A stretch of DNA of 64,000 nt, from the NCBI RefSeq assembly GCF_055900595.2, contig NZ_CM148325.1, one strand, 5' to 3'. Below, piece after piece: positions 24,001 to 27,000 of the stretch (position 1 is the stretch's first letter; each line of letters opens with the position of its first letter). The position numbers were made by a program.

Positions 24001-27000
24001 TTACCTTCAGGTTGTCGCAATGGCATCGGACATCCGGTGTCGGATAACTAAACGTAGCGTTAAGGCGATATTGCTGAGAGACCGGTTAAGTGGTTGCACG
24101 GGAGTAATGAGTTTGGGGAGGGTACCAGAATGTCAGTCTGGTGCGGTATGCTGGCAGTATCACGTTGATTACAGCATAAAGTAACGAGAGACGAATGGAA
24201 GTTAAAACCAGAGCAGTTCCGTCGTTGTTCATCCCGGGAGACGCTGGAAAAAGTGATTTCCCACACACGTTATAAACTTACCCCTGCGGAGCTGGAAGCC
24301 TTTAACTCTGCGGTCGATCACCGGCTGGCAGAACTGACAATGAACAAACTTTACGATCGCGTGCCGGCTTCCGTCTGGAAATATGTCACCTGAATCTTGA
24401 ATCCGCGCTACGATGACTCCGGTGTTATCTGTGCACCGGAAGATCGGGAACATTAAGCAGTATAACGGCAACAAAGAATTCGAAATCAAAAGGGAATGGT
24501 GTACAGAGGGGCAGGCGTTCAGGCATTACCGGCCTGTATCTTCTGAAGGGGACTCGTATTTGTCGGGGCTGAGTATTCCGCTCGATTCGATCACGGATTG
24601 GCGGAATACCTGACTGTGATTGATTCAGGTACCATTTTGCAGGGAGCCGGTGCGTTACTGTCTGGCACAACAAACGCAGCGGGTCGCTCTGCCCCGCCGA
24701 TTCCTGATAATCCCTCCTCTGTAACCTACTGCAACAGTACAAATACACTGACGCCTGAAACGGTAACCAGAATCAGCACCAGCAGTAACGTCAGTAAACA
24801 GAGCAGACGATCGGTCTTCCGGTAATAACCGAAGGGGTCGACAGCGCCACAATACGGGCAACATACTGTATTATGAGTAATTGCGTTACCACAGTCCCTG
24901 CACTTCTTTTTGCATATCACGATCGCTCCCTCTCCACGCCTTATCCGTAACCTGTTTTTTACATTAAAAAAACAACGCCGGGAATTCAATCGTCAGTCCG
25001 GCGATGACCGTTCGGGTTATCACAGAGTGCCTGAGACAGTGTCCTGCCGGAGGTCACCTCAGGGGCTCTGCGCATTTTTTACGACGTGGTTATTCCGTAT
25101 GAACCATACGGAGATTTAACCATGACCTACAAATACAACCCCTTCTGGCAGCAACGTATTCGTGAGACGGTGCGGCACGCACTGAATGTTCATTCCCGCC
25201 TGACGGCATTGCGGGTTGACCTGCGTTTCCCGGATGTACCGGCAGCAACGGACGCAGCTGTGATATCCCGCTTCATCAATGCCCTGAAAGCCCGAATCGA
25301 CGCTTACCAGAAACGTAAGCATCGGGAAGGTAAACGCGTGCATCCCACAACCCTGCATTACGTCTGGGCCCGGGAGTTTGGGGAGTGCAAAGGTAAAAAA
25401 CACTATCACCTGATGCTGCTGGTCAACCGGGATACCTGGTGTCGTGCCGGCGATTACCGCGCTCCGGGATCACTGGCCGGGATGATTAAACAGGCGTGGT
25501 GCAGTGCCCTGGGAGTGGATGCCGGACGTTATGACACGCTGGCACATTTTCCGGTCAGGCCGGCGGTGTGGCTGGAACGCGATGATGACACCGGCTTTCA
25601 GCAGGTGCTGGAGCGTGCTGACTATCTGGCGAAGGAGAGTACCAAAGCTTACGGCACCGGTGAGCGCAACTTTGGCTGCAGTCGTGGCTGAGCCCGACAG
25701 ACGACTTATCTGACCTTAGTGTGATGACGTGTTCACAGCGACCACACTGATTTTCCCTTCTGAGACTGAACTGAAAACCGCCATTCACACCTGACCACGC
25801 TGCCCGTACCGGGACGGCTGTTGCCTGTGTGTCGTCTGGCGCAGAGGAACATATACTATGTACGCAAAATCTTTTCTCGCACTTGATGGCAACGGACGTC
25901 TGACCGGTGCCCGTACCGCACAAACTGCTCCTTATGCCCACTACACCTGCCACCTTTGCGGCAGTGCACTCAGATACCACCCGCAATACGACACCGAACG
26001 GCCCTGGTTTGAACACACTGACGACGGGCTGACGGAGCACGCGCAGCAATGTCCTTATGTCAGGCCGGAACGCAGAGAAATACGGTTGATTAAACGTCTG
26101 CAGCAATTCGTCCCGGATGCCTTACCCGTGGTACGTAAAGCCAGCTGGTACTGCAGGCAATGTCACCACGATTATTATGGGGAGCAGTACTGCACACACT
26201 GCCAGACCGGGCGTTTCAGTGAGGAGGGGGTAGCAGAATGAACGGTATAAAAACGGGGCTGGGGATCACGCCGGGTGAGCACATTATCAGTGCCGACTCT
26301 GCGCTCAGCAGAAATATCCGGCATTGTTTCTGCCTTTCCTGTCATGGCCGGTTGATTCTGCAGACAGATGCTCAGGGGGCGTGGTTTGAGCATGATTTAC
26401 ATGCCCTGAGTGAGCAACAGAAGGGTAAGCGTGCAGCAAAAACCGTATTGACGGGGATGTGTTATTCAGTCGGCAGTGCTACGCGCCAGGGGAGCAGTTC
26501 GCCGACCCGGTTTATCGGCCAGTCGGCTATGACGTCAAGGACATAGCGGAGGTAGCTTTCTGGCTCCACTCCGTTCAGTTTGCACGTCCCGATCAGGCTG
26601 TACAGCAGCGCTCCCCGCTCTCCTCCATGATCCGAACCGAAGAACAGGTAGTTTTTGCGGCCCAGACTGACCATCCGCAACGCATTTTCAGCGATGTTAT
26701 TGTCCGCCTCAGCCCAGCCATCATCTGCATAGTACGTCAGCGCCGGCCACTGGTTCAGGGCGTATGCGAACGCTTTCGCCAGTTCTGAGTGTCGCGACAG
26801 GGTTTTCATCTTTTCACGCAGCCAGCTTTCCAGGGATTTCAGCAGCGGTTTCGTTTTCAACTGACGTTCGGCAAGGCGCTGCTCCGCCGTCATTCCCCTT
26901 ATCTCTGCCTCGATGGCGTACAGTTCGCCGATCCGTTTCAGCGCTTCCTCCGTCAGGGCTGACGGGGTGCGAACGTGCACATCGTGGATTTTACGGCGGG

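What the first reader, a model, noticed from the sequence alone, without database searches (positions are those of the whole stretch)
25122..26424. Gp2/YagK-like gene followed by tandem paralogous Cys/His-rich small proteins
Downstream of a YagK/YfjJ-type gene (a position that carries variable cargo, including defence genes, in CP4-57-like elements) sit two overlapping paralogs sharing a CxxC...WFEH signature; the first also has a second CxxCHH...CxxC cluster. Function is unknown; they could be nucleic-acid-binding regulators or components of a small defence or anti-defence module.
Basis: inference. Interest (0 to 1): 0.45.

Follow-up and report, generated by a model that had tools for sequence, protein, structure and literature searches.

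The report
Island-backbone zinc-ribbon gene pair, one IS-truncated
Two small zinc-binding paralogues sit behind a Rep-like (HUH) gene in an E. coli Nissle/CFT073-type genomic island; they belong to a catalogued family of unknown function that is part of the island's conserved backbone rather than its cargo, and the second copy here is cut off by an IS66 insertion.

Summary
YagK/Gp2-like gene (25122-25691), ZnR1 (25858-26241, 127 aa) and ZnR2 (from 26238, ATGA overlap) are real genes. Both Zn proteins match Pfam DUF7828, and ZnR1 also matches Zn_ribbon_11. ZnR2 is a pseudogene: an IS66 end starts at 26425, after codon 62, and its zinc ribbon and the genes that normally follow are missing from the window.

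The DNA is 100% identical to annotated E. coli Nissle 1917 sequence, where RefSeq already calls these genes 'putative zinc ribbon protein'. The family is small and was found almost only in Enterobacterales. It gave no match in the phage genome collection and only 3 loci in 2.9 million viral contigs, and it evolves under purifying selection.

Across about 25 loci from many genera the order is AlpA / HUH Rep-like gene, then ZnR1, ZnR2, a catalytically dead YagK paralogue, DUF2913, and then variable cargo. The pair is therefore island backbone, not a cargo defence module. There are no PADLOC hits and no structural relatives beyond generic zinc ribbons.

My best guess, at low confidence, is that they are non-catalytic zinc-finger accessory or regulatory factors of the AlpA-linked HUH replication/mobilisation module.

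One extra result: a roughly 55-80 nt leader 5' of ZnR1 is more conserved than the gene's synonymous sites.

The family is already known and its function is still open. Interest is modest.

The parts
25122..25691 (+). YagK_a: YagK/YfjJ (former 'Inovirus Gp2') HUH Rep-like protein, 189 aa, pI 9.8. Motifs are intact: LRVDLRF, HYHLMLLV (HUH) and YLAKESTK (YxxK).
   Evidence: PF11726 at E 2.7e-48, 164.5 bits; weak PF23343 REP_ORF2-G2P at 1.7e-5. Motifs seen in the alignment. pI. RefSeq name: 'inovirus Gp2 family protein'.
25776..25857 (+). Conserved non-coding leader of ZnR1, including the Shine-Dalgarno GAGGA. The core is about 54 nt and can form two small hairpins, the outer helix touching the SD.
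   Evidence: 84-86% identical between E. coli and loci of other genera where ZnR1 synonymous sites are saturated. Present once per locus, whatever gene lies upstream. Structure support is modest. No Rfam hit.
25858..26241 (+). ZnR1: intact DUF7828 + Zn_ribbon_11 protein, 127 aa. Predicted Zn site 1 is C31/C34/H53/C65 and site 2 is C99/C102/C112/C115.
   Evidence: Pfam hits. Invariant columns in the 31-sequence alignment. AF2 model with pLDDT 87 and pTM 0.70. dN/dS 0.13-0.17. RefSeq WP_000271011.1 'putative zinc ribbon protein'.
26238..26424 (+). ZnR2 remnant: the first 62 codons of the second DUF7828 paralogue. It is a pseudogene; the C-terminal half, including the Zn ribbon, was removed by IS66.
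   Evidence: DUF7828 at E 6e-16. 62 of 63 residues identical to the intact 141-aa orthologue before the similarity stops. The 3' part is absent from the whole window. RefSeq annotates it as a pseudogene 'missing C-terminus'.
26425..28036 (-). IS66-family element whose terminus (GTAAGCGTGCAGC...) abuts ZnR2. It carries tnpC at 26462-28036, followed by a second truncated tnpC, tnpB and tnpA up to about 29900.
   Evidence: ORF list, RefSeq annotation and junction mapping.
24726..24989 (-). Context: a small divergent ORF (65-87 aa) with a CxxC...CxxC zinc-ribbon-like motif and a C-terminal transmembrane helix. It is conserved next to YagK_a in other E. coli islands.
   Evidence: Only weak zinc-ribbon Pfam hits.
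23090..23350 (-). Context: AlpA-family HTH regulator of the island. In many other loci alpA lies directly upstream of ZnR1 on the same strand.
   Evidence: Annotation; synteny.
22432..23031 (-). Context: conserved roughly 197-aa backbone protein with no Pfam family, found downstream of alpA. It accompanies the module in other genera.
   Evidence: 35% identity, E 1e-39, to L013:5498-6088; clustering.

Best explanation
What it is (shown):
- ZnR1 and ZnR2 are an ancient, translationally coupled pair of paralogous two-zinc-site proteins. Each has an N-terminal DUF7828 domain with CCHC ligands (CxxC...WFEH...C) and a C-terminal C4 Zn_ribbon_11. Neither has an enzymatic domain.
- They belong to the conserved backbone of tRNA-integrating, AlpA-regulated Enterobacterales islands (CP4-57/P4-like integrase type).
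- They sit in a same-strand gene string: AlpA and/or an HUH Rep-like gene, then ZnR1, ZnR2, a catalytically dead YagK paralogue, DUF2913, and then the variable cargo.
- In this window only ZnR1 is intact. ZnR2 and everything downstream of it were destroyed by an IS66 insertion with deletion.

How it most likely works (inferred):
- The Zn proteins are non-catalytic nucleic-acid- or protein-binding accessory factors of the AlpA-linked HUH module.
- They occupy the position that small ssDNA-binding or regulatory proteins (gV, RstB) hold next to the Rep gene in inoviruses.
- They would help or regulate processing (replication or mobilisation) of the excised island DNA by the Rep-like nickase.
- ZnR1 would be the generic, conserved core and ZnR2 a fast-evolving, dispensable partner.
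- ZnR1 expression would be controlled through a conserved leader.
For: Identity:
- Pfam hits well above threshold.
- Invariant Cys/His columns.
- Confident AF2 model.
- Purifying selection on both paralogues.

Backbone membership:
- In the loci tabulated, nearly every intact ZnR1 has an HUH-like gene (YagK cluster or REP_ORF2-G2P-like cluster) no more than about 1.6 kb upstream on the same strand. My tally, not a tool output, is about 24 of 26 distinct loci. The exceptions are degenerate ZnR fragments.
- ZnR1/ZnR2 overlap by 4-13 nt in genera from Escherichia to Serratia and Hafnia.
- alpA lies directly upstream in the Klebsiella-plasmid-type loci.
- The downstream cargo differs between loci.

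HUH partner:
- The HUH and YxxK motifs are intact in YagK_a and in the cluster-0 Rep-like proteins.
- One cluster-0 member passes the PF23343 threshold.

Compatible with a generic rather than Rep-specific partner:
- ZnR1 is 60-90% identical across genera while the upstream Rep type switches.

Context from papers:
- Gp2-like proteins are listed among likely core functions of intY-alpA islands that carry defence cargo and behave as phage satellites (PMC12595487).
- A copy-number increase of an integrase and a Gp2-family gene was seen in gut-passaged Nissle (10.1101/364505). That locus was not identified, so this is only suggestive.
Against: - No direct evidence of nucleic-acid binding or of contact with the HUH protein.
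- The ZnR proteins are neutral to acidic (pI 5.7-7.5), which is not typical of DNA binders.
- ZnR1 phylogeny does not track the Rep type, so a specific Rep-ZnR1 complex is not supported.
- An AF2 run on a ZnR1-linker-ZnR2 fusion with 14 paired rows gave pTM 0.35, meaning no confident heterodimer. The test is weak.
- No fold relatives beyond generic zinc ribbons, including no OB-fold like gV.
- No origin-like repeats or hairpins near the genes.
- K-12 yfjJ and yagK have no ZnR genes next to them (my own knowledge of K-12 gene order, not tested here), so HUH-like proteins can exist without them.
Confidence: 0.35

Rival explanations
1. They are stand-alone zinc-finger transcription factors of the AlpA regulon. 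They would be functional analogues of the Ogr/Delta zinc-finger activators of P2/P4, contacting a conserved host target such as RNA polymerase to switch on island or helper-phage genes.
For: - Location directly downstream of alpA in many loci.
- Very strong conservation of ZnR1 irrespective of the neighbouring Rep type, as expected if the partner is a conserved host protein.
- Neutral or acidic pI.
- The island has a P4-like int/alpA/DUF3987 backbone.
- P4 Delta is itself a tandem duplication of an Ogr-like unit (established knowledge). A natural fusion of two DUF7828 units also exists, P0136.
Against: - No sequence similarity to Ogr_Delta: that family is not among the Pfam hits at E <= 1.
- No fold match to any transcription factor.
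- The leader motif occurs only once per locus, so no shared operator or regulon is visible.
Confidence: 0.22
2. They are a small defence or anti-defence module of the island, for example a zinc-finger sensor or an inhibitor of host or phage nucleases.
For: - The islands carry antirestriction, RadC/JAB and toxin-antitoxin genes, and often defence cargo next to the module.
- ZnR2 evolves fast and is frequently lost or pseudogenised, a pattern seen in arms-race genes.
Against: - No PADLOC hit for YagK_a, ZnR1 or an intact ZnR2.
- No effector domain.
- Absent from 50,697 phage genomes, and only 3 loci in 2.9 million viral contigs, which is unlike typical anti-defence genes.
- ZnR1 evolves under ordinary purifying selection.
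- The pair is invariant next to unrelated cargo, so it is not a component of those systems.
Confidence: 0.12
3. They are non-functional or mis-called ORFs, or decayed fragments of a larger gene.
For: - ZnR2 in this window is indeed a dead fragment.
- Many database members are partial.
Against: - ZnR1 is a full-length ORF conserved in many genera, with dN/dS about 0.15.
- Curated Pfam models exist.
- The AF2 model is confident.
- The SD and leader are conserved.
- No larger protein contains the pair other than rare fusions.
Confidence: 0.02

Closest known systems
Pfam DUF7828 (PF25165) + Zn_ribbon_11 (PF11682; called DUF3279 in earlier Pfam releases, from memory) proteins, named 'putative zinc ribbon protein' in RefSeq
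   Same: ZnR1 is a full member and is 100% identical to WP_000271011.1. ZnR2 matches DUF7828, and its intact orthologues match both domains.
   Different: Nothing differs apart from the IS66 truncation of ZnR2. The family itself has no assigned function and no paper was found on it.
Inovirus replication modules: gII HUH Rep followed by small ssDNA-binding or regulatory proteins such as gV or CTXphi RstB (established knowledge)
   Same: An HUH Rep-like gene is followed on the same strand by roughly 130-aa non-enzymatic proteins. The Rep-like protein belongs to the Pfam family formerly named Inovirus_Gp2.
   Different: There is no sequence or fold similarity between ZnR and gV or RstB. There are no phage structural genes, and the family is absent from phage genomes. 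The analogy is positional only.
P2 Ogr / P4 Delta zinc-finger late-gene activators
   Same: They are small Cys-rich zinc proteins, duplicated in tandem, encoded by P4-type integrative elements with an AlpA/Vis regulator.
   Different: No detectable homology (no PF04606 hit). The ZnR proteins have two zinc sites, including a CCHC site with the WFEH motif. No evidence of RNA polymerase binding.
CoiA N-terminal domain (PF25164) and DUF7830
   Same: Two of 31 family members give weak hits (E 0.017-0.03). From memory, CoiA shares the pattern x-A-x-D-x-x-G...CxxC...[HW]F[AE]H...C.
   Different: The hits are below Pfam thresholds and are seen only in ZnR2-type members. The ZnR proteins lack the CoiA nuclease domain. 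This is a lead, not a demonstrated relationship.

Membership tests
DUF7828 (PF25165) | Profile score above the Pfam gathering threshold (25.7 bits) | tested here: met
   ZnR1 scores 106.9 bits and the ZnR2 remnant 58.3 bits. All 31 members of alignment A1 match.
DUF7828 (PF25165) | Conserved CxxC...WFEH...C ligand set (CCHC) | tested here: met
   C34, F51, H53 and C65 are invariant and C31 is nearly invariant. Zinc binding itself was not tested.
Zn_ribbon_11 (PF11682) | Profile score above the gathering threshold (24 bits), with the C-terminal CxxC...CxxC | tested here: met
   ZnR1 scores 32.6 bits. For ZnR2 in this window the domain is absent because IS66 deleted it. Intact orthologues score 54 bits.
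YagK/YfjJ ('inovirus Gp2') HUH Rep-like proteins (PF11726) | Profile match, plus the HUH and catalytic Tyr (YxxK) motifs | tested here: met
   164.5 bits. HYHLMLLV and YLAKESTK are present and conserved in the YagK_a group. Nicking activity and fold were not tested.
Known anti-phage defence systems (PADLOC-DB 2.0) | Match to any defence-protein model | tested here: not met
   No family at E <= 1 for YagK_a, ZnR1, an intact ZnR2 or two neighbouring proteins.
Ogr/Delta zinc-finger activators (PF04606) | Profile match to Ogr_Delta | tested here: not met
   The family is not among the Pfam hits at E <= 1 for any of the 31 members.
CoiA_N (PF25164) | Profile score above the gathering threshold (26.3 bits) | tested here: not met
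   Best score is 15.1 bits, E 0.017, in 2 of 31 members. A distant relationship is not excluded.
Phage-encoded protein families (PHROGs, INPHARED, IMG/VR) | Presence in phage genomes | tested here: not met
   No PHROG match for ZnR1 or ZnR2. No tblastn hit in 50,697 phage records. Only 3 loci in 2.9 million viral contigs.
Rfam cis-regulatory RNAs (for the ZnR1 leader) | Covariance-model match | tested here: not met
   No hit at E <= 1 over 23000-26600.

The most novel reading that the evidence does not exclude
The HUH-like proteins, ZnR1/ZnR2, the dead YagK paralogue and DUF2913 together form a so far undescribed AlpA-controlled replication, mobilisation or helper-sensing module. This module would underlie the mobility of the very common tRNA-integrated islands that deliver virulence and defence cargo in Enterobacterales. 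In it, ZnR1 would be a new type of zinc-finger ssDNA- or host-factor-binding protein whose synthesis is gated by a conserved structured leader.
Probability: 0.15. Interest if true: 0.6.

Novelty: already known. Interest (0 to 1): 0.28.

Why it matters
The 1.3-kb module gives a match in 3,781 of 5,426 complete E. coli genomes, with a median of two places per genome that has any. It sits at the border between backbone and cargo in islands that carry adhesins, siderophore receptors and anti-phage systems. How these islands replicate or move after AlpA-triggered excision is poorly understood. If the HUH/ZnR string is their processing or regulatory module, it would be a handle on their mobility. 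As it stands, the finding re-identifies a catalogued family of unknown function. What this analysis adds is a synteny description, the IS66 truncation and a conserved leader.

Tried and rejected
- Sequence against PDB: only ribosomal L37ae/eL43 zinc ribbons at E >= 0.07 for the ZnR profile, and nothing for YagK.
- ZnR1-ZnR2 heterodimer: AF2 on a Gly/Ser-linked fusion with paired rows gave pTM 0.35, so there is no support. The MSA was shallow and no PAE was available, so this is inconclusive.
- Origin-like DNA or an RNA element in the YagK-ZnR1 spacer as a whole: the fold z-score was -0.6, there were no meaningful repeats and no Rfam hit. Only the proximal leader proved conserved.
- Co-evolution of ZnR1 with the Rep type: rejected, because Rep clusters switch within ZnR1 subclades.
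- Profile-profile links between the roughly 190-aa neighbour families: only cluster 0 against the YagK cluster was marginal (hhalign E 7.6e-4, probability 25%). The roughly 197-aa alpA-neighbour family and DUF2913 are unrelated to HUH proteins.
- Defence-system membership: no PADLOC hit.
- Literature: no paper mentions DUF7828, DUF3279 or PF11682. Papers naming 'inovirus Gp2 family protein' only list it as an annotation.
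Full report
**Source and anatomy**

The window is 100% identical over the region to the E. coli Nissle 1917 chromosome and to other complete genomes, including strains ABU 83972 and clone D. In the Nissle RefSeq record the three genes are annotated as 'inovirus Gp2 family protein' (WP_000221563.1), 'putative zinc ribbon protein' (WP_000271011.1) and a pseudogene 'putative zinc ribbon protein, missing C-terminus'. An IS66 tnpC follows them.

The surrounding island carries these genes:
- YfjI (DUF3987).
- An AlpA-type HTH regulator with a roughly 197-aa hypothetical protein beside it.
- A truncated hha.
- agn43.
- The yeeP/yeeS/cbtA-cbeA block and an antirestriction gene.
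- Beyond the IS66 copies, sialic-acid catabolism genes and iha.

**Check of the observation**

- YagK_a (25122-25691) matches PF11726 at 2.7e-48.
- ZnR1 (25858-26241) matches DUF7828 at 4e-31 and Zn_ribbon_11 at 6e-8.
- The ORF starting at 26238 (ATGA overlap with ZnR1) matches DUF7828 at 6e-16.
- ZnR1 against an intact ZnR2 orthologue gives 28% identity, E 2e-12, over the whole length, including the second Cys cluster.
- The window copy of ZnR2 matches the 141-aa orthologue of strain M12 at 62 of 63 residues and then diverges.
- At the DNA level the match ends at 26424, and an IS66 terminus (GTAAGCGTGCAGC) begins at 26425.
- The missing 3' half of ZnR2 and its usual downstream neighbours are nowhere in the window. 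This is an insertion with deletion, not a simple insertion.

**The protein family**

In an alignment of 31 members the invariant positions are C34, F51, H53, C65, W97, C99, C102, G108, C115 and G118. C31 and C112 are nearly invariant. This implies a CCHC site in the DUF7828 domain and a C4 zinc ribbon.

AF2 gives a confident model (pLDDT 87, pTM 0.70) made of short beta-hairpins and two helices. Searches with that model found nothing beyond generic zinc ribbons such as rubrerythrin, MCM N-terminal domain, RPB12 and eL43:
- Foldseek against PDB: no hit at E <= 1e-3.
- Foldseek against BFVD viral models: best E 0.02.
- A profile search of PDB sequences found only eL43-type ribbons at E >= 0.07.

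The family is small and narrowly distributed:
- An exhaustive profile search of 1.84 billion representatives found only 269 proteins at E <= 1e-3, many of them fragments.
- The named sources are almost all Enterobacterales.
- It gave no match in 50,697 phage genomes.
- It occurs in 3 of 2.9 million IMG/VR contigs.
- It occurs in 33 of 72,556 plasmid records.

No member carries an additional enzymatic domain. One representative (P0136) is a natural fusion of two DUF7828 units. The proteins are neutral to mildly acidic, whereas YagK_a is basic. Two members give sub-threshold hits to CoiA_N and DUF7830, which is only a lead.

**Selection**

Pairwise dN/dS is 0.13-0.17 for ZnR1 against orthologues up to saturation of dS. 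It is 0.10-0.32 for ZnR2 within its subclades, rising to 0.46 between the most distant ZnR2 types. Both are therefore real proteins under constraint.

A neighbour-joining tree splits the family into a tight ZnR1 clade and a much more divergent ZnR2 clade. ZnR2 is often frameshifted, IS-disrupted or absent.

**Synteny**

I collected 22 loci from species-representative genomes: Salmonella diarizonae, Hafnia, Mixta, Serratia, Siccibacter, Trabulsiella, Buttiauxella, Yokenella, Leclercia, Atlantibacter, Photorhabdus, Erwinia and others. To these I added E. coli, Citrobacter and Klebsiella loci.

I called ORFs and classified them with HMMs. The recurrent same-strand order is:
1. AlpA and/or an HUH-like gene.
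2. ZnR1.
3. ZnR2, overlapping ZnR1 by 4-13 nt.
4. A YagK paralogue.
5. DUF2913.
6. Cargo.

The upstream HUH-like gene is one of two types:
- The YagK_a type, as in this window.
- A distantly related roughly 190-aa family, of which one member passes the PF23343 REP_ORF2-G2P threshold. hhalign against the YagK cluster gives E 7.6e-4.

Both types keep HUH (HYH or HAH) and YxxK motifs. The YagK paralogue that follows ZnR2 has lost both motifs and is presumably inactive.

By my tally of the loci, about 24 of 26 distinct loci have an HUH-like gene no more than about 1.6 kb upstream of ZnR1. The two exceptions are degenerate ZnR remnants.

The cargo after the module differs from locus to locus:
- A DpdD/PLD/DEAD-helicase (Dpd-type) cluster.
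- An SNF2/AAA/S8-protease/methylase cluster.
- Afa/Dr fimbriae.
- An RND pump on a Klebsiella IncHI1B plasmid.
- Sialic-acid genes in this window.

The Zn genes are therefore backbone, located at the border between backbone and cargo. They are not part of any one cargo system. Rep type switches within ZnR1 subclades, so ZnR1 is not a Rep-specific co-evolving partner.

**Mechanism**

No experiment or paper addresses the family. The most relevant literature lists Gp2-like proteins among the likely core genes of intY-alpA islands that carry defence cargo and are transduced as satellites (PMC12595487).

I commit, at low confidence, to this reading: the ZnR proteins are non-catalytic zinc-finger accessory or regulatory factors of the AlpA-linked HUH module. 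They hold the genomic position that small ssDNA-binding or regulatory proteins hold next to rep in inoviruses, which is a positional analogy only. A generic ssDNA- or host-factor-binding role would fit the decoupling of ZnR1 from Rep type.

The main rival is an Ogr/Delta-like transcription activator role. A defence or anti-defence role has no positive evidence (no PADLOC hit, and the family is essentially absent from phages). An AF2 test of a ZnR1-ZnR2 fusion gave no confident interface (pTM 0.35), but that test is weak.

**An unexpected by-product: the ZnR1 leader**

- The roughly 80 nt immediately 5' of ZnR1 are conserved whatever gene lies upstream.
- The 54-nt core is 84-86% identical between E. 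coli and the Mixta, Hafnia, Yokenella, Salmonella and Klebsiella-plasmid loci.
- In the same comparisons ZnR1 synonymous sites are saturated (dS > 1.5) and only 40-60% of synonymous codons are identical.
- The motif occurs once per locus and has no Rfam match.
- RNAalifold support is weak (-5.4 kcal/mol).
- The two-hairpin structure is 95% paired, with three pairs showing double-sided changes against 0.5 in shuffles.
- Its outer helix pairs an invariant CCUG with part of the Shine-Dalgarno.
- This may be a translational operator or a protein-binding site. I did not resolve which.

**Verdict**

The genes are a catalogued family of unknown function, so the novelty class is 'already known'. Interest is modest because the module is extremely common in E. 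coli islands yet functionally blank.

Noticed in passing
window 25776-25857 (+); A5 columns 42-95: The non-coding leader directly upstream of ZnR1 is more conserved across genera (84-86% identity) than the gene's synonymous sites, whatever gene lies upstream. It can form two small hairpins, with an invariant CCUG able to pair with the Shine-Dalgarno. It occurs once per locus and has no Rfam match. It may be a translational operator or a protein-binding site.
   Followed up: partly
window 26425-29900 (-): There are nested or tandem IS66-family copies: tnpC at 26462-28036, a second 3'-truncated tnpC at 27997-29097, tnpB at 29128-29478 and tnpA at 29475-29900. The insertion is accompanied by loss of the ZnR2 3' half and of the YagK_b/DUF2913 genes that follow it in other islands.
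   Followed up: partly
L021:8836-9471, L024:8836-9471, L002:10014-10580 and similar loci: The YagK paralogue that follows ZnR2 in intact islands has lost the HUH histidines and the YxxK tyrosine, so it is presumably a catalytically dead Rep-like protein. It is usually followed by a DUF2913 protein.
   Followed up: partly
window 24726-24989 (-): A small ORF divergent from YagK_a encodes a CxxC...CxxC zinc-ribbon-like motif followed by a hydrophobic transmembrane helix. It is annotated as a 65-aa hypothetical protein and is conserved beside YagK_a in other E. coli islands (L002:7605-7802, L003:7611-7805).
   Followed up: no
window 22432-23031 (-) and L013:5498-6091, L019:6432-7025, L022:6465-7058: A roughly 197-aa protein with no Pfam family is a conserved neighbour of alpA across genera (35% identity, E 1e-39). 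It is another unknown backbone gene of these islands.
   Followed up: partly
window 24253-24393 (+): There is an hha remnant lacking its N-terminus (46 aa; PF05321 at E 3e-20). It is full length in strain M12 (L002:7060-7272).
   Followed up: no
ZnR1 orthologues in L021, L022, L024, L036, L040 and P0025, P0033, P0078; ZnR2 orthologues in L022, L025: Many ZnR1 orthologues outside E. coli end in a short Cys-containing tail (…EVTTCAC, …CVC, …CAY). Many ZnR2 orthologues end in …NYCCSTG or …NYGCNTLPG. These tails are absent from the window's ZnR1 and their meaning is unknown.
   Followed up: no
P0136 (238 aa) and P0040 (197 aa), from the database searches: Single polypeptides exist that combine two DUF7828 units. 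P0136 has a DUF7828-only unit followed by a full DUF7828+ribbon unit. P0040 looks like a deletion fusing ZnR1 to a ZnR2-type copy.
   Followed up: no
window 25555-26106 (-): A 183-aa antisense ORF overlaps the end of YagK_a, the spacer and ZnR1. It is not annotated in the Nissle RefSeq record. I did not search it for homologues or family hits. It is probably a by-product of codon bias on the coding strand.
   Followed up: no
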